14,772 nt of DNA from a virus (lineage: Duplodnaviria > Heunggongvirae > Uroviricota > Caudoviricetes): IMG/VR virus record IMGVR_UViG_2728369183_000003; one strand, 5' to 3'. The first letter of the stretch is position 1; each line of letters starts with the position of its first letter. The translations under genes and the position numbers were made by a program. Below are positions 1 through 14,772 of the stretch, one piece after another. Below the pieces are notes generated by a model. That model was not told the DNA's origin. It worked only from the letters and a program-made list of their open reading frames with translations, and did not search any database.

Positions 1-41
1 CTTTAGTTTAATATTGGAATAGCAAAATATTTGTATAAATA

Positions 42-344
42 TTAGCGGTATACACACTTATAGATAATCCAAAGCTGACGAAGGTGTTGTTTTACCTTAC
101 AGTGGCTTACTTCTCCATAAATCCGATTACTTTGGTCTTCTTCTGTGTCATCGTAAAAATGATATCTCGTTTTTTTAATGATACTTTCCATAATGTCATT
201 CATATTGTATTTATTGTTGAGAAAATAATAAAAATCATCTGGTGCATTCCTCCGCAATCCGTCCATATAGCTCCTGAAATAACATTCGGCTTGTTCAATA
301 AACTGTTTTGTCGTAATAAGCTCTATCTTCATATTTTTCTCCAT
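42..344 (-). CDS. hypothetical small protein (about 96-100 aa) in AT-rich DNA downstream of alpA; second in-frame ATG at 332 has a better GGAG Shine-Dalgarno
   Basis: ORF in the six-frame track with mixed charged/aromatic composition; same strand as and 70 nt downstream of the AlpA-like gene; no family recognised. Confidence 0.35.
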   Translation of the reverse strand: MEKNMKIELITTKQFIEQAECYFRSYMDGLRRNAPDDFYYFLNNKYNMNDIMESIIKKTRYHFYDDTEEDQSNRIYGEVSHCKVKQHLRQLWIIYKCVYR

Positions 345-413
345 TATTGCTTAGGATAATAGGATGCCATGTGAGAACAGTTATCTGTTCGACACGAGAT
401 CTTGTTTCTGTTT

Positions 414-632
414 TTATGCTGCGTTCTGGCGTGAGTTTCGAATAGCCGCTTCAATCCATTCATCAATCTCACTTTCAACAAAAGCGACACACCTCGGACC
501 TATTTTTACTCTGTCTGGAAAGTTTCCTTCCTTAATACGTTCATATAAGGTCGTGCGACTGAATCCCACTCGATTTAAAACATCAGGAACGCGGATAAAT
601 CGTTTTACGCTGGTTTCAATATTTTCTTTCAT
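414..632 (-). CDS. alpA: AlpA-family (prophage CP4-57 regulatory protein-like) helix-turn-helix transcriptional regulator, 72 aa
   Basis: Translation MKENIETSVKRFIRVPDVLNRVGFSRTTLYERIKEGNFPDRVKIGPRCVAFVESEIDEWIEAAI matches the AlpA pattern (FIRLPEV...G.SRSTLY..I..G.FP.PVK.G.R.V.W...EV..WI) from memory. ATG at 632 is preceded by GAGGACAGACA; the longer 96-aa ORF from 704 has no ribosome-binding site. Confidence 0.8.
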   Translation of the reverse strand: MKENIETSVKRFIRVPDVLNRVGFSRTTLYERIKEGNFPDRVKIGPRCVAFVESEIDEWIEAAIRNSRQNAA

Positions 633-847
633 TGTCTGTCCTCTATTATTGTAAGTAATCTCTATGAGATTTCGCTTTTCTCTATGTTGTTTCGACGTGA
701 ACAATGATAGCGATTTTGCTTATGGTAATTTAGGGACGTTCAAAGAAGTTTTTTTTGAAAAATTCGAAGGGGCACGGATGGAAAGATAACGGTTAACACT
801 GGATGAGATCACGTTCGCTCGGAGCGAACGTAACCCTTTTACTTGGC

Positions 848-1684
848 TTATTTTTTCTTATTCCTGTCGTCTTCTACATGCTTTTCAACAGGGGAGTCTT
901 TCAAGTGGTTGTTTTCCATCATGTAATCTTCAAGCGATTTCAGATAGCTCGCATCCGTCAGAAAAGCCATTGCTAACGGGTAGTCCGTTGCCTTTAGCAT
1001 TCCTTCATCACGATCGTTGTCGCTGTCCTCGTGAAGCAGCGAAGAAATCAGTGAAAGCGGGATTTTAATGCCGTTATCTTCTCCCCAGAAGATCAGGTCC
1101 ATCATCGGGATAAGACGATATTCAATGATTTTTCTGAATGTGCTTTTGCCGAAACGATACTCTCTTGGCGCTGGAGACTTCATCTTAAGCTGTCTCTTCC
1201 ATTGAGGGATCAGCACTTTCAGATGTTCAATGATTTCTTCAGTTGATGCCTCTTCCAGATGAATATCGACAGTAATGCGTGAAAGATTATTAAGGGATGT
1301 TTCTTTTAGATACTCGGACAGAAATTCGGATTCGCTTAACGCGGAAAGCTCAGGCGTGGCTTCGGTTAATGCCAGCGTTTTCGCATAAAATTGCGCGTGG
1401 CTTCGTGTCGTAGGATTTACCGCGTAGGTTCTGGCAAGCTCATGTCCAAGGGTAGCGGTATCACCACTGAAAAAGATTTCACCGCTGAGGATCTTGTTGC
1501 GGTAATCATCCAGCATTAATCGGTTAAAGGTAGGTATGGTGTTCCGGCTCAACAACATTCTGTAAGCCAAGATACGCCGCTCAACCTCAACATAAAACTG
1601 CTGTAAGGTGAGTTTCTCTATCGCCTCATAGCGTTCCACATCAAACCATGCTTCCAGTGCTTTCCTGATTTCACTTCTTTTCAT
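848..1684 (-). CDS. hypothetical protein, 278 aa from the ATG at 1684 (ORF open upstream to a TTG at 1741); no recognisable family
   Basis: Long ORF in AT-rich DNA; ATG at 1684 is preceded by GGAGGA 4 nt upstream, whereas the TTG at 1741 has no Shine-Dalgarno. Sits between the tRNA fragment and alpA. Confidence 0.5.
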   Translation of the reverse strand: MKRSEIRKALEAWFDVERYEAIEKLTLQQFYVEVERRILAYRMLLSRNTIPTFNRLMLDDYRNKILSGEIFFSGDTATLGHELARTYAVNPTTRSHAQFYAKTLALTEATPELSALSESEFLSEYLKETSLNNLSRITVDIHLEEASTEEIIEHLKVLIPQWKRQLKMKSPAPREYRFGKSTFRKIIEYRLIPMMDLIFWGEDNGIKIPLSLISSLLHEDSDNDRDEGMLKATDYPLAMAFLTDASYLKSLEDYMMENNHLKDSPVEKHVEDDRNKKK

Positions 1685-1892
1685 CCATCCTCCAACAATC
1701 CATTTCCTTTGATATATCTTCACAGGATCCGTTTGGAACAATTGAAGTTCAACTGTTTTGTCATCAGAGACGGGGGAATGGCTAAGTTGTTGTTAAGAGT
1801 GTGAACTCGAGAGCATAAAAGTGGATGCCCGACGCGCGGCAAAATGGTAAAAAACAGCATCAGTAGTAAGAAAAATTGAGCGAGAGAAAGGA

Positions 1893-1921
1893 ATTTTAAT
1901 GCAGGGATTTATGCATGACAA
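1893..1921 (-). promoter_or_regulatory. candidate sigma70 promoter upstream of the 278-aa ORF (TTGTCA, 17-nt spacer, TAAAAT on the minus strand)
   Basis: -35 TTGTCA at 1921..1916 and -10 TAAAAT at 1898..1893 read on the minus strand. The region is AT-rich, so a chance match is possible. Confidence 0.3.
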
Positions 1922-1962
1922 AATCAAAAATTATTTGTAAGTGATTGATTTTGTTGAATGAT

Positions 1963-2024
1963 TGGCGGAGAGAGGGGGATTTGAACCCCCGGTAGAGTTG
2001 CCCCTACTCCGGTTTTCGAGACCG
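1963..2024 (-). tRNA. truncated tRNA-Ser (serU-type, anticodon CGA) 3' fragment of 62 nt, from the anticodon stem to the CCA end; not a functional tRNA, interpreted as the prophage attachment-site core (attR)
   Basis: Reverse complement of 1963..2024 reads CGGTCTCGAAAACCGGAGTAGGGGCAACTCTACCGGGGGTTCAAATCCCCCTCTCTCCGCCA, matching the 3' part of E. coli tRNA-Ser(CGA) as recalled. Similarity stops at 2025; the 5' acceptor and D arms are absent. Confidence 0.85.
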
Positions 2025-2514
2025 ATGATACAGAGTCGAAAAATCAAAGAGTTAAAAATTTTTCTTGGAATAAATGTCTTAAAATCGTACACGAAAAATC
2101 AATAAATTACATAACATTAAAGAAGAATATTCCAAGCCTTCTTGAGGCCACCACCTGTTTTCAGGTGTCATTCAGATGTGATTTACCCCAGATTGGGAAA
2201 GCACGCTTTTTTTTCTCAGCTTATTCCGTTTTGCCTGTGTGTTGAATAATTCCACTGCAGTTATATAAAATCGGTAACGGCTGGAAATCATTCAATACTC
2301 GCACTATCGAAAGTTCACCAGCCAACCGCAGCACGTCCTGCATACGTCGTGTCTGCGGTTTTTCTTTTTCGCTTACATTGTGTCTGGTTCTTCCAGCCAC
2401 TCAATATCAGGTGCAGTTGATGTATCAACACGGTTCAGCAACACCCGATACTTTTTCCAGGCTTCCAGCAACGGGGTTTCTTCCTCCGCCGTTGCATATA
2501 CAGCTCACCTTTTT

Positions 2515-2835
2515 TCACCCACGATTAACCAACAGCCAGACCAGCAGACACGCCACCACCGGNNNNNNNNNNNNNNNNNNNNNNNNNNNNNNNNNNNNNN
2601 NNNNNNNNNNNNNNNNNNNNNNNACACGCGGATCAAAACCGCCCCACCACGGCATGTTAATCCGCTTGCCATGCCCGAACATTTCAATCCAGCGATATTC
2701 TGCCTGGGTGTGTTCACGCGCAATGAAGAACGTACAACCAGCTATCGCTCCGTAAGCCCAGTTTCCGGTAAAAAGACCAGCCAGTACCTGCACCGCCACG
2801 GCACAAAGCGCATGAAGTATCGACGTGATATCCAT
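2515..2835 (-). CDS. small hydrophobic (predicted membrane) protein of about 106 aa, interrupted by a 61-nt N-run (2563-2623); the C-terminal 15 codons and stop are uncertain
   Basis: ATG at 2835 preceded by AAGGA 6 nt upstream. N-terminal 70 aa (MDITSILHALCAVAVQVLAGLFTGNWAYGAIAGCTFFIAREHTQAEYRWIEMFGHGKRINMPWWGGFDPR) contains a long hydrophobic segment. Last gene before the att fragment. Confidence 0.5.
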   Translation of the reverse strand: MDITSILHALCAVAVQVLAGLFTGNWAYGAIAGCTFFIAREHTQAEYRWIEMFGHGKRINMPWWGGFDPRXXXXXXXXXXXXXXXXXXXXXPVVACLLVWLLVNRG

Positions 2836-2844
2836 CTGCTATCC

Positions 2845-3123
2845 TTAAAACCACTCCCTGAGCGGGCGCTCTGGTGTAACCACCCACTCACGGAACACGG
2901 AATCCTCAAATCCATCGTCAAGAAGACGGATATTAACAAAGTACCCTTCGTTTCGCGTGTATTCTGGTTCTCCGTCATCAGAAACATCTGTCTCCCTGAA
3001 CGTAAAACCAATCTCATCAACCAGAACGGCATTCTGCAGCTCTTCGTCCTCTTCCCAGTTAAGTTTCCTGAGAAATGCCCTGAAATCTGCTCTATCACTG
3101 AAACGCAACGTGAAATCTCTCAC
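2845..3123 (-). CDS. acidic 92-aa hypothetical protein, translationally coupled to stf (GTG start overlapping the stf stop as GTGA); possible fibre-associated or other cargo function
   Basis: GTG at 3123..3121 overlaps the stf TGA at 3122..3120; GGGGAGG lies 7 nt upstream. Protein has 24 acidic residues of 92. Its stop (2847..2845) overlaps the Shine-Dalgarno of the next gene. Confidence 0.55.
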   Translation of the reverse strand: MRDFTLRFSDRADFRAFLRKLNWEEDEELQNAVLVDEIGFTFRETDVSDDGEPEYTRNEGYFVNIRLLDDGFEDSVFREWVVTPERPLREWF

Positions 3124-5183
3124 TCCACAACCTCCCCAAGCTGCGCATCTGTTAGCTCTTTATGCCAGAGACGAAAATTCCTCACATGCCCAAATAAATG
3201 GCGTAATCCTGCTGTAGTTTGTCCACCAATGCGAATGGTTGCTGTACTCCGGATATATTCCCATTTGGTTTTAGTTTCGCTGGATATACGCCCGTTACTT
3301 ACTGCACATGTAGACTGATCTGACTTTACACGCATCCCCATAACCATTTTTTTCAACGATGCGTTTTCGTTAACACGCCTATTTGATCCACCAATATCGC
3401 AATAAGGAAATCCGTCTGGCCCATCTGCCGAAGATCCGAAGCCAAGAATAATAGCCGCTCCGGTTTGATGACCACCGGTATCAAAAACACGTGGCGCTGC
3501 ATTTGGCGTTTTATACCAGTTCTTATGTACCTCACAAAGAACCGTAAAAGGAAGATTATAAAGATTATTATTAATTGGAACTGTAACTATATCGCTTGCG
3601 CGGGTAGCCGCCGTCGTTCCTGAGATAATAAAAGATGATGCACACGAACCATCCTCAACCTGAGGGGTGGCCAGATAAATATAGTCTCCAGATACGGTTG
3701 CTCCGCCCTGATTAGGAGAATACTGTATCTGAGATCCTATTTTTAACTCATCATCAATTGCCAGGATTGTTGCCTCTGCAAAAATCCATCCGGTAGCTTC
3801 GTCCTTTCTGACTCTCGCTGTAATCCCTGAGGCCGCGCCACCTGTCATATTAATTTCAAGCGTTTGTGTATCAATATATGCATCACCAAGAAAAGTTGTT
3901 GCACTACCGTCATATTTATCAAAGCGGATACGCAACCTTACCTGTCGTTCTGTTTTAAAACGACATGAGGTTGTCACGTACTTGTTATCGCCTGAAACAT
4001 CAACTGACTTTGTAGCAGCAATTGATGCCATATTAATGGCTGACGTTTGCCCAATCAGAGAATCGTTACAAACAAACTTTCCATAAGTAAAACCAAAACT
4101 ATCAGTTCCAACCTCAGCGACATTCATATTTGCAGATTTACCCCAAGAAGCTGGAGTTGCTGAATTCAACATGTAGTTGGTTCGCTGACCTTCAATCAAT
4201 AAACCTTCTTTTTCAAATCGTGGCTCATTAATTTCCGCCGTTTTCAGTTCGCCAGATTTGTTGATATATGTTGCCGTTGATGCGCGACTGAAATTAACCT
4301 GTTTATCACTGGCAACCTGAACCACATTATCGCCAATCTTCACTTTTTTATAACCCGGAGAATAGCCCGTAATCATATCCAGCGAATCATTAAAGGGTAT
4401 CCACACATCCGGCAGCGGCTGTAAAACATATCTGTACGGCTCTGCTGTCTGGTTTGCGTATTCTCTGGCAGCATCTTCACTTGCTTTTGCTGCCGTCTGG
4501 CTTGCTGCCGATGCTTTCGCCGAGTTCGCCGCCGCTGTTTCGCTCACCTTTGCGTTGGCTTCACTGTCTTTGGCATTCGTCTCACTGGTTTTCGCTGCCG
4601 TCTGGCTGGATTTTGCGTTTTTTTCGCTGGCCTTTGTGGCTGTCTCGCTATTTTTCGCGCTGGTTTCTGATTTTTTGGCTGCTGTCGCGGAGTTTGCCGA
4701 TGCAGTCTGCGAGGCCGCTGCCGCCTGTGCGCTGTTAGCTGCATTCGTTTCTGAGGTTTTCGCCGCATTCTTCGATGAGGCTGCTGCCGTTTCGGATTTC
4801 TTTGCCGCCGCTGCACTCTGTGATGACGCTCCGGCATGACGTGCCACTTCATTCACCATCAGCTCAAAACGGCGCAGTGCCTCCGGACGAACATCATCCT
4901 CCGTCATGGCGCCGAGAAAATCATTCAGCGTACCTGGTCTGGAACCTTCATAGACGGTAATGGTCCCGGCATGTGAAGGCGGAAAATCTTCAACCAGCAG
5001 GGTGACGCTGTACTGGCCATACTCAACATCCATGCTGTAACGCCCGGCTTCATCCGGATTTTCAGAGGCCACCGTGTTCACCACCACCGTGCTGCTGGTC
5101 CGTCTGGCCTTCAGCACAATGGTGCAGTTCTGTACTGGTTTTCCTGTGCCATCTTTAAGCACGCCAGAAATTTTTACTGTCAT
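3120..5183 (-). CDS. stf: side tail fibre protein (lambda Stf-like N-terminus, Ala/Lys/Ser/Thr/Glu-rich repeat shaft, divergent C-terminal domain), 687 aa
   Basis: N-terminus MTVKISGVLKDGTGKPVQNCTIVLKAR...GRYSMDVEYGQYSVTLLVEDFPPSHAGTITVYEGSRPGTLNDFLGAMTEDD is close to lambda Stf as recalled; ATG at 5183 with GGTGG Shine-Dalgarno. Confidence 0.85.
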   Translation of the reverse strand: MTVKISGVLKDGTGKPVQNCTIVLKARRTSSTVVVNTVASENPDEAGRYSMDVEYGQYSVTLLVEDFPPSHAGTITVYEGSRPGTLNDFLGAMTEDDVRPEALRRFELMVNEVARHAGASSQSAAAAKKSETAAASSKNAAKTSETNAANSAQAAAASQTASANSATAAKKSETSAKNSETATKASEKNAKSSQTAAKTSETNAKDSEANAKVSETAAANSAKASAASQTAAKASEDAAREYANQTAEPYRYVLQPLPDVWIPFNDSLDMITGYSPGYKKVKIGDNVVQVASDKQVNFSRASTATYINKSGELKTAEINEPRFEKEGLLIEGQRTNYMLNSATPASWGKSANMNVAEVGTDSFGFTYGKFVCNDSLIGQTSAINMASIAATKSVDVSGDNKYVTTSCRFKTERQVRLRIRFDKYDGSATTFLGDAYIDTQTLEINMTGGAASGITARVRKDEATGWIFAEATILAIDDELKIGSQIQYSPNQGGATVSGDYIYLATPQVEDGSCASSFIISGTTAATRASDIVTVPINNNLYNLPFTVLCEVHKNWYKTPNAAPRVFDTGGHQTGAAIILGFGSSADGPDGFPYCDIGGSNRRVNENASLKKMVMGMRVKSDQSTCAVSNGRISSETKTKWEYIRSTATIRIGGQTTAGLRHLFGHVRNFRLWHKELTDAQLGEVVE
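4454..4850 (-). repeat. imperfect tandem repeat tract inside stf encoding the Ala/Lys/Ser/Thr/Glu-rich shaft
   Basis: Protein segment AAKKSETAAASSKNAAKTSETNAANSAQAAAASQTASANSATAAKKSETSAKNSETATKASEKNAKSSQTAAKTSETNAKDSEANAKVSETAAANSAKASAASQTAAKASEDAA; the same nucleotide periodicity produces the spurious ORFs 4454..4738, 4544..4852 and 4555..4839. Confidence 0.5.
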
Positions 5184-5194
5184 ACTTTTCCACC

Positions 5195-5230
5195 AATAAA
5201 AAAAGCCCGCAGCAGTGACGCCACGGGCTT
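5195..5230 (-). terminator. candidate rho-independent terminator downstream of lom, immediately upstream of the stf start
   Basis: Minus-strand hairpin (stem AGCCCG/CGGGCT extended by A-T pairs, 14-nt loop) followed by TTTTTTTATT (reverse complement of 5195-5203). Confidence 0.4.
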
Positions 5231-5334
5231 CAGGACAGTGTAACTTTACGTTTCCTCAAACGCAGTTCACCCCATAAGGCGGATGAACCTGCGTATCATA
5301 ACAATATTTACAGAAGATAAATCGGCGTCTGTTG

Positions 5335-5934
5335 TCAGAAACGGTATCCGATACCAACAATAAATGCATCCGTTCGCCAGTCGCCACTACCGGAACCTTC
5401 ATAAGCAATATCAATGGTCACGGATTCGGTCGGGTTAAACTGCACGCCAGCTCCCCACGCCAGAGACGTGTTGCTGTGGCGATCGTCATCACTTCCGGTC
5501 AGCACATCGTGCGTTTTCCCCTTGTTGTCAGTTACGCGGAGATAATCCCCGGAGAACGTCGACACACGGCTGTAAGCCACACCTGCCATCGCATAAGCAC
5601 TGAACCATTCATTCACGCGTACAGATGGCCCCGCCATCACGCTGAACCAGCGGTTACGCACTGAATCTTCATGCCAGCGGGTATCGCTGTAGTGCGTTTT
5701 TTGCTCATCCTCAGCATTGGCATAACTGAAGGACGTAATCAGCCCCAGCGCGTCCGTAAACTCATAACGGTATTTCACGTTAATCCCGTTCAGATTATCG
5801 CTGCCTGGCATATCAGTGTGGGTCTGAAGATACCCGGCGCTTAGTGTGGACTGATGCTCTGCTGCGCTCGCTGGCGTACCAGCGGCAACCAGCCAGACTA
5901 CTGCGGACAGAATAACAGCACATAATTTACGCAT
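5335..5934 (-). CDS. lom: Lom, Ail/Lom-family outer-membrane beta-barrel protein (lysogenic-conversion moron), 199 aa
   Basis: Signal-peptide-like N-terminus MRKLCAVILSAVVWLVAAGTPASA and C-terminus ...SVTIDIAYEGSGSGDWRTDAFIVGIGYRF, nearly identical to the lambda Lom C-terminus as recalled; GAGAGG Shine-Dalgarno before the ATG at 5934. Confidence 0.9.
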   Translation of the reverse strand: MRKLCAVILSAVVWLVAAGTPASAAEHQSTLSAGYLQTHTDMPGSDNLNGINVKYRYEFTDALGLITSFSYANAEDEQKTHYSDTRWHEDSVRNRWFSVMAGPSVRVNEWFSAYAMAGVAYSRVSTFSGDYLRVTDNKGKTHDVLTGSDDDRHSNTSLAWGAGVQFNPTESVTIDIAYEGSGSGDWRTDAFIVGIGYRF

Positions 5935-5954
5935 AATTACCTCTCGCTTTTCTG

Positions 5955-5982
5955 CAATAAAAAAGGCGCCATTTCTGGCGCC
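5955..5982 (-). terminator. rho-independent terminator between J and lom
   Basis: Minus-strand hairpin GGCGCCA-GAAA-TGGCGCC (7-bp GC-rich stem) followed by TTTTTTAT, directly after the J stop at 6002. Confidence 0.55.
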
Positions 5983-6001
5983 CGTATTGGGGTTATAAAA
6001 T

Positions 6002-7336
6002 TCAGCTAATCGTGATGCCTGCAGTGGCTTTCTTCATCACAACAACCAGCAAATCGCTGATACTTGCTGTGGGATACCAGCCATTTACCCACCATGCTGA
6101 TACAGAAAACTCCAGCGTCATGTCGCCGCGACCAGCAGGCATATCAATAACACCACTGTAAACCAGCGTATTATCCATCGCGGTACGGTTATAAATTTCA
6201 GCACCGTTTTTCTTCACTATCAGGCGGCATGACGAATAAGTATCGCTGTTCTCCCGCTCATGTCTGGCACCGCTGAAAGCCACCGCCGGAATAACAATCT
6301 GCCGGTTAAACGGCTGATCGTCATAAACCCTGACGGTAATGGTTCCTGATGGCCAACGCTTCGGTGCACGGGAGTCACGAGGGAAAGCCTTACCCACTGT
6401 TTTAACGAGATCGCCTTCAATCTGGTTTGCAGACAGTTTCCCTCTGATGACACAGTTCTTGTTAATGGTGACATTATTGAGCGTGCCGGTATTCGCCGTG
6501 ATGGCTCCACTGATATCCGCATTGCGGGCTGTCAGCCTGCCATCCGGCGTCAGGGAAAACGTCGGAGGATTGCCGGATGACGTGATGCTCACCGCAAACA
6601 GTCGCTTCAGGAACACGTCGTTCATGAACAGCTGATTCCCCTGCGCCACAAACAGCGGCGTGGTGTTGCCGTTCTCCGGGGTAATCATCGCGATACGGTC
6701 CGCCTGCAGCAGAATACTGCTCAGCGTCTGACCATCAACATCCTCAATCCCCGCGCCAATCCCGGCCACATAGGGAATACCGTTTTTTGTTTTCTGCACC
6801 TTCAGCATATACATGGCATTCAGCTCATTGCGCGTGTCTGACTGAACCCGCTGGATTTGCTGTATGGTCACGGCCTGGTCACCCAGCTTTTTATCCGTGG
6901 TCGAGGTAATTTCACTCCCTTTTTTATCCACGTACTGGCGGACCTGTGCTATCTGTCGGGCGTTTTCTGACTGCCCCTGGCTGACAGTCTGTGAGATTTC
7001 ACTGCTCACCCGGTCCACTTTCTGGCTCACCTGCGCGATGGCCAGTGTCTGGTCCTCATTCTTTTTCGCAACCAGCTGCGTGAGGCTGTTTTCCGCCTTC
7101 CCGATTTTCCGGGTCACTTCTGCGATATCCGTGTCCATCCGCTGACGGATGTCTTCTTCCAGTTGCGTGACCTCCGTACGCAGCGCTGAAGCATCAATGC
7201 GCTCTTTCAGTGCCTGGCCCAGAAGCGTCTCATCTATCAGCCCCCGGAAAAATTCCAGATACCCTTCACCATCATTGCTGGGCTGCCCGCTGGCTTCCAC
7301 AAAAGCAGATTTTCCCACCAGGTTGACGCTTCGCAC
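6002..7336 (-). CDS. J: host specificity protein J (central tail fibre), C-terminal fragment; frame is open upstream to about 7400 and joins the N-terminal fragment through a single-base frameshift
   Basis: Translation ...[40 protein letters not shown]...[10 protein letters not shown]...[22 protein letters not shown]...[14 protein letters not shown] is collinear with the C-terminal third of lambda J as recalled. Confidence 0.8.
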
Positions 7337-9693
7337 GTAAAACCAGAAATCCGTCCCCGGCTTAATCCGGCTCCCCTGGACAGTCCACTGACTGCCGGTC
7401 CCAGATAACGGGCAGATTTTTCCACCTGTGCCGTGTTCGTGATGCGTTTTTCTGAGAACCAGAATTCAAACTGTACCGTCGGGTCATACACCGCAAGACG
7501 CGGGACCGCCGTTATCTGAAAATACCCCGGCGTCAGCTCAATGGTGGCGGGTTTTGCAGGCGCGTTAATCCGGAAGGTGGTGGTCGCAGGTTCGCCCTGC
7601 TGGCCGTAGCTGTTAATGGCCCGCACCGTCAGGGTGTATTCCCCCAGCGGCAGACCACTGAAACGGTGCTCCGTGTCTGCGGTGATGGCGGTGCTCACCA
7701 GACGGCTGTCTTCTCCGCTTCCGCTGGTCAGACGCAGACTGAAGCGCACACCCTTCACCACCCGCGGCGTGTCCCATTTCGCCTGTGCCAGATACTGACC
7801 GTCAGCTGCACTCACCTCCACCGTCAGGTGCTGCACTGCCGGTGGGATAACGCTGTTCAGGCTGCCTGACTGCGGCTCAAAGCTGGCCCCGTTATCCACA
7901 ATGGCTTCTTTTTCCGGTACGTGCTGCACCGCCGTGATGGCGAACGTGCCGTCCGTGTTTTCCCGGATGGAGACACAGCGGAACAGGCGACGACGCAGTG
8001 ACGGCAGGGAGAGTCCCCACACCCCGTATGTCTCCACACCATCAGGCAGGGTACTGACCTGTATCCGGTCCGGCGCGGGGTGTGCGGTGATGTCCACACT
8101 CACCGGCTTACCGCTGCCGTTAATCAGGTTCACCGCCGATGTACCTGTCTCCGGCAGGGTAACCTCACGGTCCAGCGTCAGGGTGCGGGTGGCAGCATCA
8201 ATGGACAGGACACGTCCGCCGGTCAGGGTCCCGGCATAGTCATTATCACAGATTTCAATAATGTCACCGGGTGTGTGCCGCAGCCCCTGAGACCCGAGCG
8301 TGAAATCCACCGTCTGCGTTTCCAGCAGTTCGGTCTTTATCACCCACAGTCCGGCACGGTGGGCCTGACCGCGGCTGGTACAGCCGAACGCGTCCATCTT
8401 CAGCAGGTTGCGTCCGTAGCGCAGTATGGCTTCCGGGTCTTCCACCAGTTCCGTGGAGGTCTGCCAGCCGTTCTGCGGGTCGGTGTAATTCACCTCCACC
8501 GCCGTGTGCCGGTCCTTCAGGGCACTGAAGCTGTAGCGGAATCCCACGCCGTTATCATCCACCACCACATCGCTGTTGGTGTACGGCCACACCACATCCG
8601 ACGGGCGGTCCTGAACGAACGTCAGCGTCTGACCGTTCCATACCGGCATACAGCGCATCGCAGAGCAGAAATCACTGAGAACGTCCCACGCCTTACGCTG
8701 TTGTGCCAGGTACGCATTAAAGGTCATCCGCGGCTCGGTCCCCCCGAAACCATCCGGGACCGTCTGGTCGCAGTACTGCCCGATGGCATACAGCGCCCAC
8801 TTGTCCACATCCGCCGCCCCCAGACGTTTTCCCATGCCGTAGCGCGGGTGAGTCAGCATGTCCCACAGGCACCAGGCCGGGTTGTTGCTGTATGCCGGTT
8901 TCAGACTGCCGTCCCAGATACCACTGTACGTGCGTTTTTCCGGGTCATAGTTTGACGGCACCTGGATGATGCGACCGCGGATATGGTAGTTCACCGTCAT
9001 CTGCTGGCCGCCGAACTGCTCCGCATCCACCTGCAGCCCCACAATGGCCGTGTTCGGGTAGCACTGTTTCACATCGATGATTTCGGTGTATGACGACCAC
9101 AGCGTCTTATTCTGCAGCTGGTCCGTGGTGCTGTCCGCCGTCTCCCTGACCATCCGGATGTTAAAGGGCCGGGGAGGCAGATTATCCAGAATCACCGAGG
9201 CCAGGAACTGCGAGGTGGTCTTGCCGTTAATGGTGACATCCTTTTCCGTCACCCAGCGGCCATTACGCTGTAACTGAATCAGAATCCGGACAGAGGAAGG
9301 ATTACGGTCGCCCTTTGACGTGGTCTGCACCAGTGACTGCACCCCGAAGGTAACCCGCAGGCGGTCAATGTTCGCGGACGTAATGGTGCGCGTCACCGGT
9401 TTTGCCTTCGTCACTTCCACGCCCAGTCCGGTTTCAGCACCGGAGGACTCAAAGCCTTCCGGTGGTGTCTGCTCCTGCTCCCCGGCGCGCCAGACCGCCG
9501 TCACACCGTGTATCACGGGATTACCGTCCGTGTCCGTCAGCGGGGTTTTGTTCACCAGGATACTCTGCAGTCCCTTCACCGGACCTTCTATCGGTCCCTC
9601 ACCAATCGCATCAATCACGCTCATCATCTGCGTGGATTTGAGATTATCCTTCGCCTCACGAGGCGTGTGTGCCTTACCGCCACCTTTTCCCAT
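7237..9693 (-). CDS. J: host specificity protein J (central tail fibre), N-terminal fragment of 818 aa ending in an out-of-frame tail after the frameshift near 7365-7370
   Basis: ATG at 9693 preceded by GGGGAAGG. Translation ...[29 protein letters not shown] follows lambda J; after YLGPA the frame departs from J and the continuation appears in the overlapping frame of 6002..7336. Confidence 0.8.
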
Positions 9694-9797
9694 ACAGCCT
9701 TCCCCTGAATAAATTAACCGCCACTTGCCATTCCGTACAGAAGTCGGATATCCTTCGCCCGAAAAGCATGAAACACATTTCTGCCATGCTAAAGAGA

Positions 9798-9832
9798 AAC
9801 CCCGGTATCAGCAGATACCGGGGTTTTCTTTC
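9798..9832. terminator. bidirectional hairpin terminator candidate inside the I-J intergenic insertion
   Basis: Perfect 12-bp inverted repeat AACCCCGGTATC-AGCA-GATACCGGGGTT (9798-9825), followed by TTTTCTTTC on the plus strand and by TTTCTCTTT on the minus strand. Confidence 0.5.
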
Positions 9833-9898
9833 ATGCCCACCGATAATCCTGTTGGTTAAAACCGGTAATGGCATAAAAATTCTGAATATCTTCACATT

Positions 9899-9926
9899 TT
9901 CACAAACTGACTGTGGCGCGTATAAT
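9899..9926 (+). promoter_or_regulatory. near-consensus sigma70 promoter (TTCACA, 16-nt spacer, TATAAT) firing rightward, antisense to the late tail operon
   Basis: -35 TTCACA at 9899-9904, -10 TATAAT at 9921-9926, A/T-rich upstream tract at 9871-9890. Confidence 0.45.
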
Positions 9927-9932
9927 TTCTCT

Positions 9933-10030
9933 GCGTTAATTTTTTTGTCGTGATATAAGAATAATTCCTTACACTTAATCTTCGTAACTCTCCCGCAGTT
10001 CCTGTCCGCGATCACTGCGGGATTTTTTTA
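9933..10030 (+). ncRNA. candidate small RNA of about 100 nt between tail genes I and J, defined by the promoter at 9899-9926 and the terminator at 9992-10036; no ORF inside
   Basis: Promoter and intrinsic terminator in correct order and spacing on the plus strand; the only in-frame start after the predicted transcription start (GTG ATA TAA) terminates at once. Family not recognised. Confidence 0.35.
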
Positions 10031-10036
10031 TTCTTT
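9992..10036 (+). terminator. rho-independent terminator (plus strand) abutting the 3' end of gene I
   Basis: 8-9 bp GC-rich stem CCCGCAGT / ACTGCGGG (9992-9999 and 10014-10021), 14-nt loop, then TTTTTTTATTCTTTTT (10023-10036). Confidence 0.55.
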
Positions 10037-10717
10037 TTACCCCTGCCGCCCGATAACCACGACCTTTCCGCCCCCGCCTTCATCACGGGTGCTGATGTCC
10101 TGGGATATACGGCGGGAGCCAACCAGCATTTCCCCGTAAGGCACCGGCATCGGGTTCCCCTGGGCAATCATGTTATCCAGTGAGGAAAAGTACGTGTTCT
10201 GTCTGCCGTTATCCGTTGCGCGGTAATCCGGTGTTTTTGCCTTCGGGGCCAGCATCTGGGCCACACCGCCCAGAATCATGCTGGCTCCAAGTGAAAACAG
10301 CATCGTGGTGGCAGAAAAACCACCGGCTGCCAGGGCTGAACCCCATAACGCCATTGATGCCCCGGCAGTGAAGAAAGAGCCCACGATGGCTGCCGCCCCC
10401 AGCACAATCTGCAGTCCACCCTTTCCGGCCCCGGCCAGTCGCGGCACAATGTGGATGACCGTTCCCTCACCCAGCTGTTCGTGAAGACGGGCGTACACCG
10501 CCTCCGGTGCCGTGTCATAACCGGCAATACGTATCTGGTACCAGCCTTCGTTCATCTGACGGCGAAAGCCCGGCATCTGCATCGACAGGGCGCGAATGGC
10601 TTCCGCTGCCGTGTTCACATACAGGCTGAGGCGGCGGCCAAATCGTTGTAAATCCCCGTGAAGGCAGATGCGTGCCAGTGGCGGTGACGCCAGACTGAAT
10701 GCGTTCGTCGTTGCCAT
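10037..10717 (-). CDS. I: tail assembly protein I (lambda gpI-like), 226 aa
   Basis: Translation ...ARICLHGDLQRFGRRLSLYVNTAAEAIRAL...IVLGAAAIVGSFFTAGA...LGASMILGGVAQMLAPKAKTP...QNTYFSSLDNMIAQGN...YGEMLVGSR matches lambda gpI as recalled. Confidence 0.9.
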   Translation of the reverse strand: MATTNAFSLASPPLARICLHGDLQRFGRRLSLYVNTAAEAIRALSMQMPGFRRQMNEGWYQIRIAGYDTAPEAVYARLHEQLGEGTVIHIVPRLAGAGKGGLQIVLGAAAIVGSFFTAGASMALWGSALAAGGFSATTMLFSLGASMILGGVAQMLAPKAKTPDYRATDNGRQNTYFSSLDNMIAQGNPMPVPYGEMLVGSRRISQDISTRDEGGGGKVVVIGRQG

Positions 10718-11358
10718 TTTTCGGAATACCTCTCCCGTTTACTCAGTTGTTCAGGAATATGGTGCAGCAGCTCGCCGTCACCACAGTAAATGGCGGCATG
10801 ATTCGGCACCGATGAACCAAAACAGCACAGCAGCACATCGCCCGGCTGCGCCGCTGACAACGGCACCTGATACAGCCCTGTGGCCTCCAGATTATCCAGA
10901 TAGAGATTCTGACCGTGACGCCACCAGTCATCCTCGCGATGAAAATCCGGCATCTCAGTCCCCGCCAGATGGTATGCATCCCGGAACAGGGTGTAACAGT
11001 CCGTCACCCCGTGCTCAAAGCGCCGTCCCGTCAGGTGCGGCACGCAGCGGAATTTGTGAATGTCACCCCGGCAGACCAGCCACCAGGGCAGTGCGCTTTT
11101 TATCTGCAGCCGCCGGTCAGCCTCGCTCAGCCAGGGCAGCCCACCGGGATGACTGTGGACCAGTGCCACAATCTCCCCCTGCATCTCTGCCCGCAGCCAG
11201 TCTTCCGGTGCGATACGAAAATACGCCTCCGGCTCTGCAGAAATATTCACACAAGGGATATACCACTCCCCCTCCGGCGTGCTTATCACGAAGCCGCACG
11301 ACTCCGCAGGCGCACACCGCCGGGCATGCGCCAGAATCGCTGATTCAGTCTGTGTCAT
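10615..11358 (-). CDS. K: tail assembly protein K (lambda gpK-like; JAMM/MPN metalloprotease motif plus NlpC/P60-like Cys/His), 247 aa
   Basis: True start is the internal ATG at 11358 (MTQTESAILAHARRCAPAESCGFV...); the 334-aa ORF from 11619 is an upstream extension. Motifs HSHPGGLPWLSEADR (JAMM) and GVTDCYTLFRDAYH / HHIPEQ present; overlaps I as in lambda. Confidence 0.9.
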   Translation of the reverse strand: MTQTESAILAHARRCAPAESCGFVISTPEGEWYIPCVNISAEPEAYFRIAPEDWLRAEMQGEIVALVHSHPGGLPWLSEADRRLQIKSALPWWLVCRGDIHKFRCVPHLTGRRFEHGVTDCYTLFRDAYHLAGTEMPDFHREDDWWRHGQNLYLDNLEATGLYQVPLSAAQPGDVLLCCFGSSVPNHAAIYCGDGELLHHIPEQLSKRERYSEKWQRRTHSVWRHRHWHASAFTGIYNDLAAASACM

Positions 11359-11368
11359 AAACCGGGAT

Positions 11369-12067
11369 TTACTGCGAAAGTTTATTAATGGAAAGGAAAC
11401 CGCCAAAATTGCCGACATTCCTGCGCAGTTCACACCCGCGCATGCACTTGCTGCATCTGTCCTTACGGATATCCGTGGTGGGGTTGTCGAACTCATCCGC
11501 CACCGCAGGACCGTTATACCCGCATTCATCTCCCCGGTAATCCCACATACAGGTGTTCGCCAGCATGATGCGACCGGGAAACAGCGCCCCGTCCGTCTCG
11601 GTCGGTGTAGCCAGCACAAACGAGGCCGTCATGGCTGTCAGCTGCGACATCTGCTCCACCACCCAGCGGTCACTCAGCTCCTGCTCCGGGTCCGCCTCCG
11701 GATTGCCCGCAACGAAATTCACCGCATCCAGAAAACGGGCATACACCCGGCGGCGGACCACCGTGGCCCCCACCAGACTCTGCAGGTCTTCCGCCATCCC
11801 GGTGACCAGACCGAACAGATTGGACACCGTCAGCGACGGTCTGGCACTGCTGCCCCGGCCGTTCATCTCAAAGCCGCTGCCGTCAATCGGGTATGCCTCA
11901 TACTTACGCCCCTGCCAGGTGACCGGCTCCCCTTTTTCATTCAGCTCATTACAGAAAAAATACCGCTCACCACCCTGTACCGTCAGGTCGATTTCCCAGA
12001 GTACCACCCGCGGTGACTGCTCTGACTTAACCGACTCGTTCAGACTTTCTTCGCGAATATCCTGCAT
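11369..12067 (-). CDS. L: minor tail protein L (lambda gpL-like), 232 aa
   Basis: Translation MQDIREESLNESVKSEQSPRVVLWEIDLTVQGGERYFFCNELNEKGEPVTWQGRKYEAYPIDGSGFEMNG... with the C-terminal Cys cluster (CSKCMRGC) follows lambda gpL as recalled; start overlaps the M stop. Confidence 0.9.
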   Translation of the reverse strand: MQDIREESLNESVKSEQSPRVVLWEIDLTVQGGERYFFCNELNEKGEPVTWQGRKYEAYPIDGSGFEMNGRGSSARPSLTVSNLFGLVTGMAEDLQSLVGATVVRRRVYARFLDAVNFVAGNPEADPEQELSDRWVVEQMSQLTAMTASFVLATPTETDGALFPGRIMLANTCMWDYRGDECGYNGPAVADEFDNPTTDIRKDRCSKCMRGCELRRNVGNFGGFLSINKLSQ

Positions 12068-12396
12068 CAGTTCACCACCTGCTTAAACTCCGCGCTGAAC
12101 TCAACGCGCAACATCCCGACCCGTGCAGACCACCCGGCACAGGTCACCTTTATCTGCCGGTATGCATAGGGTGGCTTCCACAAAAATGCCTTCCAGCCAC
12201 CGTGCTCTGCCAGGAACGCTTCCAGATGCCGGGCCTCCTCCCGGGTCACGGAAAGCGTCACCCTGTATGTTTTCAGGTCAGCATTCAGCCCTGCCGCCAT
12301 ACGCTGTGAGTACCCGTCACCAAAACGCACTTCACGCACCGATGGCTGCGAGTTCACCTCCATATCCGGCTTCACTTTCCAGCGAAAGGTTTTCAT
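12067..12396 (-). CDS. M: minor tail protein M (lambda gpM-like), 109 aa
   Basis: Translation MKTFRWKVKPDMEVNSQPSVREVRFGDGYSQRMAAGLNADLKTYRVTLSV...GGWKAFLWKPPYAYRQIKVTCAGWSARVGMLRVEFSAEFKQVVN is near-identical in pattern to lambda gpM as recalled; start overlaps the H stop (ATGA). Confidence 0.9.
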   Translation of the reverse strand: MKTFRWKVKPDMEVNSQPSVREVRFGDGYSQRMAAGLNADLKTYRVTLSVTREEARHLEAFLAEHGGWKAFLWKPPYAYRQIKVTCAGWSARVGMLRVEFSAEFKQVVN

Positions 12397-14772
12397 CCAC
12401 CGCTCCCTGATAACATACCGCCATCACGCAACTGCAGCCGGAGTTCATCCTGTGCCCCCTTGCGGGCCATCTCATACACCGCTTTCATCAGCTGCGGCCC
12501 TGCCCGCCCGTTGGGGCCGTCGTTCTGAATCACCACGTGATTGTTCTGATTAAAATTAATGCCTTCCGCCCGCCGCATCTGCGCCGGACTTCCGGCACCG
12601 CCGACATAACCACCTTCCGCATAGCCCCGCATCAGGCGGTACAGATTGCCGACACCAATCCGGCTGGTCGCCTCCTTCGTGAAGACAAACTCCCCGCGAT
12701 GAACAATCCCCGCAGGTTCATATTTACCCCCCGTCCCCGTAAATCCCCCGGTCGCGAAATGGAAGTTCGCCGCCGCAGCCTGAATGGCTGTACCGCCTGA
12801 CGCGGATGCGCCGCCACCAACAGCCCCGCCAATGGCGCTGCCGATACTCCCNNNNNNNNNNNNNNNNNNNNNNNNNNNNNNNNNNNNNNNNNNNNNNNNN
12901 NNTATCCCCACCATCGCCTGCTTCAGAAAAATCTCTGTCAGCATGGACAGCACAGAACGGGTGAAACCACGCCAGTTCTGTTCGCTGCCGGTCAGCATCG
13001 CTGCCATATTCTGTGCAATACCGTCAAAGGTCTGCGTGGCCGCGTTTTTAACCTGCGAAAAACTGTCCGTCGCACTTTCCGCCCACTCGCCCCAGCCGGA
13101 CTTCATCCCGGCCATCCAGCTTCCACGAAGCTGCTCCTCCGCAGACCAGGTGTTCTTCAGTGCNNNNNNNNNNNNNNNNNNNNNNNNNNNNNNNNNNNNN
13201 NNNNNNNNNNTCCGCGGGCTTTTGCGCTGATTGCCGCCTGCTTCGCGCTCTGCTGCTGTTCAAACCGCGCCGCCTGCTGTGCCAGCTCATTCAGCCGTTT
13301 CTGGTGTTCAATCTTGTCGCCCAGCTCAGCCAGCTGGCGTTTGTACTCCAGCGTTTCTTTCTCATGGGCCAGCAGGGATTTTTCCTGCTCAGATAACTGC
13401 CGTTTCGTGGCGGCCTCTTTCAGGACCACATACTGATTTTCCGCTTCCCATAAATCCCGGCGCTGCTGGCTGATTTTCTCATTCACACCGCTGTGTTTTT
13501 CCAGCGTCCTGAGCTCGGTTTCAAGCGCCAGCATGGCTGCATGCGCCCGGTCTTCCTGGCGCTCACCGGCAGACACCTTCACACCTGACGGCTTTTTCAG
13601 CGTCGATTCATAATCCTTTTTTGCCGACGCCATCAGCGTGTTGTAATCCGCCTGCAGGATTTTTCCGTCTTTCAGGGCCTTATTCAGCTCTTTCTGACGG
13701 GCGGTATATTTATCCAGCGGCGTCTGCAGGCGCTCATACGCCTTCTGCGCCTCTCCGGTATACTTCAGCTGTGACGCCTCACGCTCAGCCCGGTCCCTTG
13801 CCGCCAGTTCACCGGCTTTTTCCATATCCGACTGCAGCGTGGCCGCTGCCAGACCCAGACGGGCATTTTCCCGGTCATCCCATGCCCCCTGAAGGTTCGC
13901 ACGAAAAGAGGAGGTCTTTCCCCGGCGCTGGCTCCGGCTCTGGTACCACTGCCATTTTTTATCCGCCTCATCAAATGCCTTCTGCGCACTGGCGAGCATA
14001 TCCGCTGAGGATTCAGGACGACCGATATCCAGAATGGCATCCCACATCGATTTGAATGCCTTCCCTGTTTTATCCGCCCAGGTCTCCAGTGTTCCCATGT
14101 TTTCTTTCAGGCGACGGGTCTGCTCATCAAAGCCTTTCGTGGCGATATCGTTCGCCGCCTGCAATGCCCCGGCCTCGTCTCCGGAACGCTGCAGCTGTGC
14201 AACATACGCAATCTGCTCTGCCGTCACGTTACGGAACTGGCGCGCCATCGCCATCAGTCCCGACGTCGGGTCAGTGGTCAGCTTCCCGAAGGCTTCAGCG
14301 ACTTTATCCACCTCCACACCGGATGCAGACGCAAAACGCGCGACACTCTGGTTGATGGCATCAAACTGTTCACCACCACGCACACCGGCATTCATCAGGG
14401 CTGCCAGTGACTCTCTCGCCTGGTTAAACGTCAGCCCTGCTGCCTGCCCGGCTCTTGAGAGAGTCAGCATACGATCGGCAGTCAGTCCGGACTGATTACC
14501 GGAAAGAACCAGGGTTTTATTAAACGCTGAAAGCGTGGAATCTCCCTGGTACCAGGCGTACACCAGCGCACCTGTCGCCACCGCCAGCGAGGTGACCCCG
14601 ACCATCGGCAGGGTGATCGCACCGGCGAGCCCCCTGAACATGGGGATCATCCCGCCGAAGGAGTCCTTCACCTGACCGCCCTGTTGCAGCAGGATCAGCC
14701 AGGGATTCTGACCACCGGCAAGCTGCGTGGCGATATCCGTAAACTGTGCGGGCAGGGTTCGCATGGCCGCTT
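12393..14772 (-). CDS. H: tail tape measure protein H (lambda gpH-like), partial; 5' end lies beyond the right window edge; interrupted by N-runs at 12852-12902 and 13164-13210
   Basis: ORFs 13157..14764 (MRTLPAQFTDIATQLAGGQNPWLILLQQGGQVKDSFGGMIPMFRGLAGAITLPMVG...) and 12393..13115 (...WMAGMKSGWGEW...IVHRGEFVFTKEATSRIGVGNLYRLMRGYA...) are collinear with lambda gpH from about residue 80 to the C-terminus. Lambda H has about 80 residues N-terminal of the MRMLPAQFTD motif, so the true start is outside the window. Confidence 0.85.

What the first reader, a model, noticed from the sequence alone, without database searches (positions are those of the whole stretch)
414..1741. Orphan 278-aa protein of unknown function paired with an AlpA regulator in AT-rich DNA next to the att site
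Immediately outside the tRNA-Ser fragment, low-GC DNA encodes a 278-aa protein with no motif I can recognise (no integrase, transposase, nuclease or ATPase signature visible by eye), followed by an AlpA-family regulator and a small ORF, all on one strand. AlpA is the hallmark activator of P4-like and phage-inducible chromosomal islands, which integrate at tRNA genes and often carry single-gene anti-phage cargo. No integrase lies between the att fragment and alpA, so the layout is atypical: either an integrase-less island remnant or cargo in the integrase slot. A YfjJ/YagK-like identity is possible but I cannot confirm it from sequence memory.
Basis: partly seen in the sequence, partly recalled or inferred. 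Interest (0 to 1): 0.6.

Follow-up and report, generated by a model that had tools for sequence, protein, structure and literature searches.

The report
Known serU island end: DUF6387 plus AlpA
The stretch is the tRNA-side end of a well-known E. coli pathogenicity island (the tcpC/serU island of strain CFT073), and its "orphan" protein belongs to a named but unstudied family (DUF6387) that always sits beside the island's excision factor AlpA, so the locus is ordinary although that protein's job is still open.

Summary
A 278-aa ORF (848-1684, minus), an AlpA gene (414-632, minus) and a small ORF lie in low-GC DNA beside a 62-nt serU 3' fragment (1963-2024).

The DNA is 97-100% identical to the serU-proximal end of PAI-CFT073-serU, the tcpC island, which is related to the ROD21/EARL islands. 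About 7% of complete E. coli genomes carry it. In relatives the integrase sits at the other end of the island, about 22 kb away, next to a 14-bp repeat of the serU 3' end. A lambdoid prophage has since inserted into serU and left the tRNA fragment.

The protein is a full-length Pfam DUF6387 member. It is not YfjH- or YfjJ-like and matches no PADLOC defence model. A confident AlphaFold model matches no solved or viral fold.

In every informative context, about 20 in three layouts, DUF6387 lies directly upstream of alpA and next to the att site or the integrase. It is under purifying selection. Between two otherwise 93-98% identical E. coli islands it differs together with the integrase and AlpA's DNA-binding part.

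My reading, which is inferred, is that DUF6387 is an unstudied accessory of the Int/AlpA excision module. The locus is known; interest is modest.

The parts
1963..2024 (-). 62-nt 3' fragment of tRNA-Ser(CGA) serU. It is the old serU 3' part displaced by a lambdoid prophage, and its last 14 nt (CCCTCTCTCCGCCA) are the island's att core.
   Evidence: Identical to the intact serU of L007, and 96.8% identical to the serU in L003. No complete tRNA is found. The 14-nt core is repeated at the far island junction, exactly where homology to an empty serU site begins.
1894..1954 (-). att-arm region of the island. It holds an inverted repeat (TTGATTTTGT at 1945-1954 and ACAAAATCAA at 1918-1927) and two TGCAT(A/T)AAA motifs. 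These are candidate Int/AlpA binding sites.
   Evidence: Read directly from the sequence. The motifs are conserved downstream of the tRNA in L006, L007, L010-L013 and L022. Binding is inferred only; the ROD21 homologue of AlpA binds both att regions (PMC8844411).
1893..1921 (-). sigma-70-like promoter candidate for the DUF6387 gene: TTGTCA, 17 nt, TAAAAT.
   Evidence: Matches 10 of 12 consensus positions. The region as a whole has no more promoter-like sites than shuffled sequence, so this is a candidate only.
848..1684 (-). DUF6387 family protein, 278 aa. It corresponds to the serU-adjacent gene of PAI-CFT073-serU and is the counterpart of SEN1999 in ROD21.
   Evidence: Pfam PF19924 full-length match, E = 1.4e-53. 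98.6% amino-acid identity to CFT073 WP_000830396.1. dN/dS 0.05-0.12. AlphaFold2 pLDDT 91.6. No fold or sequence match in PDB or BFVD.
807..835 (.). Conserved 12-bp hairpin directly after the DUF6387 stop codon. Its T-run lies on the + strand (837-840).
   Evidence: RNAalifold on 7 relatives gives 12 pairs, 4 of them with compensatory changes.
414..632 (-). AlpA-family winged-helix protein, 72 aa, the presumed recombination directionality factor of the island.
   Evidence: PF05930 at E = 1e-18; PHROG 'excisionase and transcriptional regulator'. 32% identical to K-12 AlpA. 65% identical to the AlpA of an Asn-tRNA EARL island. The RDF role of the homologue SEN1998 is from PMC8844411.
42..344 (-). 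Small backbone ORF of unknown function: 100 aa from the first ATG, 96 aa in RefSeq relatives. It is c2415/SEN1997-like.
   Evidence: Annotated as a hypothetical protein in L001 and L004. 91% identical over 54 aa to the E7476 island copy, which is frameshifted. No Pfam family.
2025..14772 (.). End of a lambdoid prophage (tail fibre, Lom, J and tail genes) inserted into serU. It is not part of the island.
   Evidence: ORFs. Annotation of near-identical genomes, with the prophage integrase next to the intact serU.

Best explanation
**What it is.** Window 1-1962 is the serU-proximal end of the known E. coli serU island (PAI-CFT073-serU, the tcpC island). This is a mobilisable island with a ROD21/EARL-type backbone. 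It integrated by a P4-type tyrosine integrase into the last 14 nt of serU. In this genome a lambdoid prophage later integrated into serU with a 62-nt core, which left the old serU 3' part as a fragment beside the island.

**Role of the two genes.** The two genes of the finding are the att-flanking half of the island's integration/excision module. When the island excises as a circle, the order is alpA <- DUF6387 <- attP -> int.
- AlpA is the recombination directionality factor. This is inferred from the homologue SEN1998.
- DUF6387 is an acidic, all-alpha, single-domain protein with no known fold relative. I infer that it is a dedicated accessory or regulator of the Int/AlpA module. It more likely acts through protein-protein contacts with AlpA or Int than as an enzyme or a general DNA binder.

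**Shown versus inferred.** Shown: the identity of the locus, the geometry, the strict DUF6387-alpA linkage, and purifying selection. Inferred: the role of DUF6387.
For: **Identity and geometry**
- Window 414-1760 is 100% identical to AR_0017 and 97.2% identical to CFT073.
- In CFT073 the intact serU is followed directly by DUF6387, the AlpA-type HTH gene, small ORFs, H-NS, RepL, tcpC and MobQ.
- In FDAARGOS_1283 the layout is integrase, pilV, pilin, TraD, MobQ, tcpC ... alpA, DUF6387, serU fragment, prophage, intact serU.
- The far junction begins exactly at CCCTCTCTCCGCCA. From there it is 98.8% identical over 689 nt to an empty serU site.

**DUF6387 as part of the module**
- alpA follows DUF6387 on the same strand, 85-210 nt downstream, in every locus long enough to show it. 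This holds down to 23% identity. In one locus an IS605 tnpB gene is inserted between them.
- Three layouts are seen, and all keep DUF6387 next to int or att:
  - tRNA -> int -> DUF6387 -> alpA
  - tRNA-Asn -> int ... <- alpA <- DUF6387 - repeat
  - tRNA-Ser -> DUF6387 -> alpA ... <- int - repeat
- The serU-type and Asn-type E. coli islands share a 93-98% identical backbone. They differ in Int (27%), DUF6387 (39%) and the N-terminal part of AlpA (65%). Nucleotide homology ends 65 nt inside alpA.
- Of about 537 backbone-positive genomes, 382 carry the serU type and 139 the Asn type of DUF6387.
- dN/dS is 0.05-0.12.
- The family has 403 clusters, all single-domain.
- The protein's pI is 5.6.
- The AlpA homologue SEN1998 binds attL and attR, with higher affinity for the DUF6387-side attR (PMC8844411).
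Against: - No experiment or homology links DUF6387 to recombination.
- Linkage alone could explain why it differs together with att and int, because it lies physically between alpA and att. The block that differs also contains unrelated cargo between int and pilV.
- The hairpin after its stop codon and a conserved -10-like element before alpA suggest separate transcription units.
- In the int-DUF6387-alpA clade it diverges faster than both neighbours: 38-52% against 62-81%. That pattern would also fit a specificity or conflict protein.
- The integrase and far junction were seen only in relatives, because the window ends 41 bp beyond the third ORF.
- The per-genome overlap of the E. coli counts was not checked.
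Confidence: 0.55

Rival explanations
1. DUF6387 is a conserved backbone gene whose function has nothing to do with recombination, for example episome maintenance, transfer, or interaction with H-NS or the host. It sits next to alpA and att only through inherited synteny.
For: - Orphan fold with no DNA-binding or catalytic signature.
- It probably has its own transcription unit, separated from alpA by a hairpin.
- The islands also encode RepL, H-NS paralogues and transfer genes.
Against: - The gene pair persists in elements that share no other backbone. These are prophage-like elements with S24 repressors and ORF6N, and minimal int-DUF6387-alpA islands at tRNA-Gly, tRNA-Thr and tRNA-Arg.
- Int and AlpA are the only constant partners.
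Confidence: 0.25
2. DUF6387 is a single-gene anti-phage or conflict protein, or a sensor analogous to a SaPI Stl repressor. It is carried next to alpA and responds to phage infection.
For: - It lies on a mobile island that also carries TIR-domain genes.
- Its fold is an orphan.
- It diverges faster than the flanking int and alpA in one clade.
- It occupies the int-X-alpA slot.
Against: - No PADLOC model matches.
- It is almost never replaced by other genes: about 97% of backbone-positive E. coli genomes carry it.
- Strong purifying selection in close comparisons, dN/dS 0.05-0.12.
- Absent from genuine phage records.
- No helix-turn-helix domain was detected.
Confidence: 0.15
3. One reading: an integrase-less island remnant, or cargo that replaced the integrase next to the att site.
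For: - No integrase lies between the tRNA fragment and alpA in the window.
- In some relatives at tRNA-Ser(TGA), a 13-28 codon remnant of an integrase 3' end lies directly upstream of DUF6387. Integrase loss therefore does occur in related islands.
Against: - In CFT073 and all close relatives of the window, an intact P4-type integrase lies at the far end next to the 14-bp repeat.
- The window's upstream region holds no integrase remnant.
- DUF6387 is conserved, not variable.
Confidence: 0.04

Closest known systems
PAI-CFT073-serU (serU island, tcpC island) of uropathogenic E. coli CFT073
   Same: - The same DNA: 97.2% nucleotide identity over alpA plus DUF6387, and 98.6% amino-acid identity for DUF6387.
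- The same position directly downstream of serU, and the same gene order.
- Published as c2392-c2416, flanked by serU with an integrase at the other end (PMC6315130, PMC5521745).
   Different: - In the window's genome a lambdoid prophage has inserted into serU, so the island abuts a 62-nt tRNA fragment rather than the intact gene.
- Synonymous divergence from the CFT073 copy is noticeable, dS 0.13.
[quoted passage not shown]
   Same: - Shared backbone of pilV, pilin, TraD, MobQ/MobA relaxase, DUF4756, H-NS paralogues and small ORFs, at 93-98% identity to an E. coli Asn-type member.
- The last two genes are AlpA and DUF6387, as in ICEKp258.2 Table 1 (PMC10763509) and in SEN1998/SEN1999 of ROD21 (PMC3198454).
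- A P4-type integrase sits at the opposite end.
   Different: - The target is serU, with a 14-nt core, rather than an Asn-tRNA gene with its conserved repeat.
- The island is flipped relative to the tRNA, so the DUF6387 end is tRNA-proximal.
- Int is 27%, DUF6387 39% and AlpA 65% identical to the Asn type.
- The serU island is not listed among the EARL islands in PMC6035254.
CP4-57 intA-yfjH-alpA module of E. coli K-12, and P4-like or PICI int/alpA modules
   Same: A P4-type integrase, an AlpA-family gene, and one roughly 300-aa uncharacterised gene in between. Distant DUF6387 members occupy exactly this int-X-alpA slot.
   Different: - YfjH is not a DUF6387 protein, and it is on the opposite strand.
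- AlpA is only 32% identical.
- In relatives the serU island carries none of the primase, capsid-redirection or packaging genes of satellites.

Membership tests
Pfam DUF6387 (PF19924) | Full-length match to the family HMM above the gathering score. | tested here: met
   182.6 bits against a cut-off of 28.9; residues 1-252 cover profile positions 1-258 of 258. All 109 aligned relatives match only this family.
AlpA family (PF05930), recombination directionality factor | Match to the Phage_AlpA winged-helix HMM. | tested here: met
   67.4 bits against a cut-off of 21. PHROG 'excisionase and transcriptional regulator'.
AlpA family (PF05930), recombination directionality factor | Binds the att arms and stimulates excision. 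| not testable with these tools
   Known only for the homologue SEN1998 of ROD21, by EMSA on attL and attR with a modest effect on excision (PMC8844411).
PAI-CFT073-serU (serU island) | Lies directly downstream of the serU 3' end and has the island's end sequence. | tested here: met
   The window's serU fragment (1963-2024) is followed by DNA 97-100% identical to the island end in CFT073, AR_0017 and FDAARGOS_1283.
PAI-CFT073-serU (serU island) | Far-end P4-type integrase with a 14-bp serU repeat, and tcpC cargo. | not testable with these tools
   The window ends at the third ORF. These features are present in the closest genomes.
EARL (ROD21-like) island family as defined in PMC6035254 | Integration at an Asn-tRNA gene with the conserved direct repeat. 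| tested here: not met
   The att site is serU, with core CCCTCTCTCCGCCA.
EARL (ROD21-like) island family as defined in PMC6035254 | Conserved backbone: integrase and SEN1998-like RDF near the att sites, type IV pilin, MobA/MobL relaxase, TraD, H-NS homologue. | tested here: met
   The RDF is in the window. The rest is present in near-identical relatives and is 93-98% identical to an Asn-type E. coli EARL island.
P4-like satellite or phage-inducible chromosomal island | int and alpA together with a primase/replicase and capsid-redirection or packaging genes. | tested here: not met
   Annotation of the whole island in L001 and L004 shows a relaxase, TraD, pilus genes, RepL, H-NS and tcpC. None of the satellite genes is present.
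YfjH, YfjJ or YagK-like CP4 prophage proteins | Sequence or profile similarity. | tested here: not met
   BLASTP E = 0.097 for YfjH and 13 for YfjJ. hhalign probability is 0.2%. YagK itself was not compared.
Known anti-phage defence systems (PADLOC-DB 2.0) | Match to any defence protein model. | tested here: not met
   No family at E <= 0.1 for the 278-aa protein.

The most novel reading that the evidence does not exclude
DUF6387 is a previously unrecognised third component of P4-type integrase/AlpA recombination modules. It would be a specificity-matched partner that controls when, or in which direction, the island recombines, for example by binding AlpA or Int, or by sensing a signal. On this reading, 'int-DUF6387-alpA' is a three-gene excision cassette shared by EARL islands and by several unrelated tRNA-borne elements in Enterobacterales.
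Probability: 0.3. Interest if true: 0.55.

Novelty: already known. Interest (0 to 1): 0.3.

Why it matters
The locus itself adds nothing new. It is the sequenced and published end of the tcpC/serU pathogenicity island.

What remains open is the function of DUF6387. It is conserved and under purifying selection, and its confidently predicted fold has no match. It is strictly coupled to the excision factor of a family of islands that includes ROD21 (Salmonella virulence), ICEKp258.2 (Klebsiella ST258) and the tcpC island (UPEC, and also Nissle 1917).

Published work on excision in these islands considers only the integrase and the AlpA-type factor, and deleting the latter has surprisingly small effects. 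A third component could explain that. It is directly testable by deleting one gene and measuring attB/attP.

Tried and rejected
**Identity of the 278-aa protein**
- YfjH or YfjJ identity: rejected.
- Defence-system membership: no PADLOC hit.
- NCBIfam: nothing meaningful.
- PHROGs: only an unannotated family made of the same protein.
- PDB sequence searches with 15- and 109-sequence profiles: nothing below E = 0.7.
- Domain fusions that might hint at a function: none in 109 members or in the 7 longest members.

**Structure**
- The first AlphaFold run, on a shallow alignment, was poor: pLDDT 62. The deep alignment gave 91.6.
- The afdb50 library was unavailable.

**Where the family occurs**
- Phage and plasmid collections: the only hits are chromosome-like or misassembled records.

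**RNA and repeats in the window**
- Rfam at the gathering threshold and at the E-value threshold: only echoes of the tRNA fragment.
- Repeat search in the window gave only chance-level pairs.

**Searches and ideas that led nowhere**
- The search for related loci failed with alignments that were too diverse.
- The supplements of PMC10763509 do not list the gene.
- I checked whether the window's upstream region holds an integrase remnant, as in L006 and L008. It does not.

Full report
**Observation.** The elements described are all present.
- On the minus strand lie a 278-aa ORF (848-1684; ATG preceded by GGAGGA), a 72-aa AlpA-family gene (414-632) and a small ORF (42-344).
- To their right, 1963-2024 is the reverse complement of the last 62 nt of tRNA-Ser(CGA), serU. 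ARAGORN and Rfam find no complete tRNA.
- GC is 0.33-0.45 in this stretch, against 0.50-0.62 in the lambdoid prophage genes that fill the rest of the window.
- The protein is not an orphan. It matches Pfam DUF6387 over its full length, E = 1.4e-53.

**What the locus is.**
- Window 414-1760 is 100% identical to E. coli AR_0017 and 97.2% identical to CFT073.
- 382 of 5,426 complete E. coli genomes hold at least 80% of it, always on the chromosome.
- In CFT073 the intact serU gene is followed directly by DUF6387, the AlpA-type gene, small ORFs, H-NS paralogues, RepL, tcpC and a MobQ relaxase.
- This is PAI-CFT073-serU (c2392-c2416). [quoted passage not shown]
- In the genomes closest to the whole window the order is: zinT, a 14-bp copy of the serU 3' end, P4-type integrase, cargo, pilV, pilin, TraD, MobQ, tcpC ... 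alpA, DUF6387, serU fragment, lambdoid prophage, prophage integrase, intact serU.
- I compared the far junction with an empty serU site in strain E7476. Homology starts exactly at CCCTCTCTCCGCCA and runs 689 nt at 98.8%.
- So the island integrated into the last 14 nt of serU. A prophage with a 62-nt core then integrated into the same tRNA gene and pushed the old 3' part, with the island, away from it.
- This explains why no integrase lies between the fragment and alpA. In this island the integrase is at the tRNA-distal end, outside the window.

**Relation to known islands.**
- The backbone is that of the ROD21-like (EARL) islands.
- ICEKp258.2 ends with 'AlpA family transcriptional regulator' and 'DUF6387 family protein' (PMC10763509).
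- ROD21 ends with SEN1998 (AlpA) and SEN1999, an 876-nt hypothetical gene (PMC3198454).
- An Asn-tRNA EARL island in E. coli E7476 shares pilV (96%), pilin (95%), TraD (98%), DUF4756 (96%), H-NS (100%) and the small ORFs (91-96%) with the serU island.
- Its integrase is only 27% identical, its DUF6387 39%, and its AlpA 65%. Nucleotide homology stops 65 nt inside the 3' end of alpA. The same breakpoint appears in roughly 150 genomes.
- In the excised circle, alpA <- DUF6387 <- attP -> int is one contiguous block. That block differs as a unit between the Ser-tRNA and Asn-tRNA types.
- The block also includes unrelated cargo between int and pilV, which weakens the argument a little.
- Because the target is serU rather than an Asn-tRNA gene, the island fails one defining feature of EARL as published (PMC6035254), although it shares the backbone.

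**The 278-aa protein.**
- The family is modest in size: 403 clusters at 50% identity at E <= 1e-3. Members are single-domain, 260-330 aa, and the named ones come from Enterobacterales.
- It is absent from genuine phage and plasmid records.
- With a 109-sequence alignment, AlphaFold2 gives a confident all-alpha model: pLDDT 91.6, pTM 0.85.
- The protein is acidic (pI 5.6; family median 5.6). It has no cysteines and no catalytic-looking motif. The family-wide conserved residues are mostly aromatic or structural: W13, F14, Y19, R37, P160, W162, R/K163, D196, W200.
- dN/dS against relatives is 0.05-0.12, so it is a functional gene.
- It is not YfjH or YfjJ, and no PADLOC model matches.

**Context across the family.**
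- In every locus long enough to tell, an AlpA gene follows DUF6387 on the same strand, 85-210 nt downstream. This holds down to 23% identity. In one locus an IS605 tnpB gene has inserted between them.
- Three layouts occur:
  - tRNA (Gly, Thr or Arg) -> int -> DUF6387 -> alpA, in elements that share nothing else with EARL islands
  - tRNA-Asn -> int ... <- alpA <- DUF6387 - repeat
  - tRNA-Ser -> DUF6387 -> alpA ... <- int - repeat
- Int and AlpA are the only constant neighbours.
- In E. coli, about 537 genomes carry the island backbone. 382 have the serU type and 139 the Asn type of DUF6387. I did not match these counts genome by genome.
- This is the behaviour of a core module gene, not of cargo in a hotspot.

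**Mechanism, and what is inferred.**
- AlpA here is most likely the island's recombination directionality factor. Its ROD21 homologue binds both att regions, more tightly on the DUF6387 side, and has only a modest effect on excision (PMC8844411).
- I infer that DUF6387 is an accessory or regulator of the Int/AlpA module. Because it is acidic, it probably acts through protein contacts.
- Several points count against this:
  - there is no direct evidence;
  - linkage alone could explain why it differs together with int;
  - a conserved hairpin after its stop codon and a conserved -10-like element before alpA suggest separate transcription units;
  - in one clade it diverges faster than int and alpA, which would also suit a sensor or conflict protein.
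- My estimates are about 0.95 for the identity of the locus and about 0.4 for this role of DUF6387.

**Verdict.** The locus is already known and common in extraintestinal E. coli. The interpretation as an atypical integrase-less layout with anti-phage cargo is not supported. The residual interest lies in DUF6387 as an unstudied, strictly AlpA-linked protein with an orphan fold.

Noticed in passing
window 807-840: A 12-bp hairpin directly after the DUF6387 stop codon is conserved in relatives, with compensatory changes in 4 pairs. Its T-run lies on the + strand (4 T here; 5-7 T in L006, L014 and L017). It therefore looks like a terminator for transcription antisense to DUF6387 and alpA, which suggests a small antisense transcript across the alpA leader. 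The 41-aa + strand ORF at 664-789 is not conserved.
   Followed up: partly
window 1894-1954: Next to the serU core lie an inverted repeat (TTGATTTTGT and ACAAAATCAA) and two TGCAT(A/T)AAA motifs. They overlap the only good sigma-70-like promoter upstream of DUF6387. They are conserved downstream of the tRNA in other Ser-tRNA-type islands and in L022. They are candidate Int/AlpA arm sites.
   Followed up: partly
window 2563-2623: A run of 61 N (an assembly gap or masked stretch) inside a prophage ORF just right of the att fragment.
   Followed up: no
window 2025-14772; L003 27228-28395: A lambdoid prophage (tail fibre, Lom, J, tape measure) is integrated into serU with a 62-nt core, in tandem with the island. 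In FDAARGOS_1283 its integrase is annotated as frameshifted. Only 19 of the complete genomes share this island-plus-prophage arrangement at 80% coverage or more.
   Followed up: partly
L006, L008, L010-L013, about 40-130 nt upstream of DUF6387: A 13-28 codon remnant of a P4-type integrase 3' end lies directly upstream of DUF6387 in islands at tRNA-Ser(TGA). In L009 a complete integrase, 80% identical to the serU-island integrase, occupies that position. These relatives therefore descend from an int -> DUF6387 -> alpA layout and have lost the integrase.
   Followed up: partly
L030-L033 versus L020: Within the int-DUF6387-alpA clade, DUF6387 is 38-52% identical, while the flanking Int is 62-74% and AlpA 68-81% identical. 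The middle gene evolves faster than both neighbours.
   Followed up: no
L014 (Kluyvera georgiana), about 4600-6867: An integrase N-terminal half lies on the opposite strand about 800 nt upstream of DUF6387. This is a divergent int/DUF6387 arrangement resembling the excised-circle junction, but inside a 68-kb contig. It may be a tandem array or a fourth layout.
   Followed up: no
L029 9535-10691 (E. coli E7476): The Asn-type EARL island sits at asnT, only about 1 kb from an empty serU site. Two related islands with different integrases therefore target adjacent tRNA genes in the same chromosomal hotspot, which also holds the HPI in other strains.
   Followed up: no
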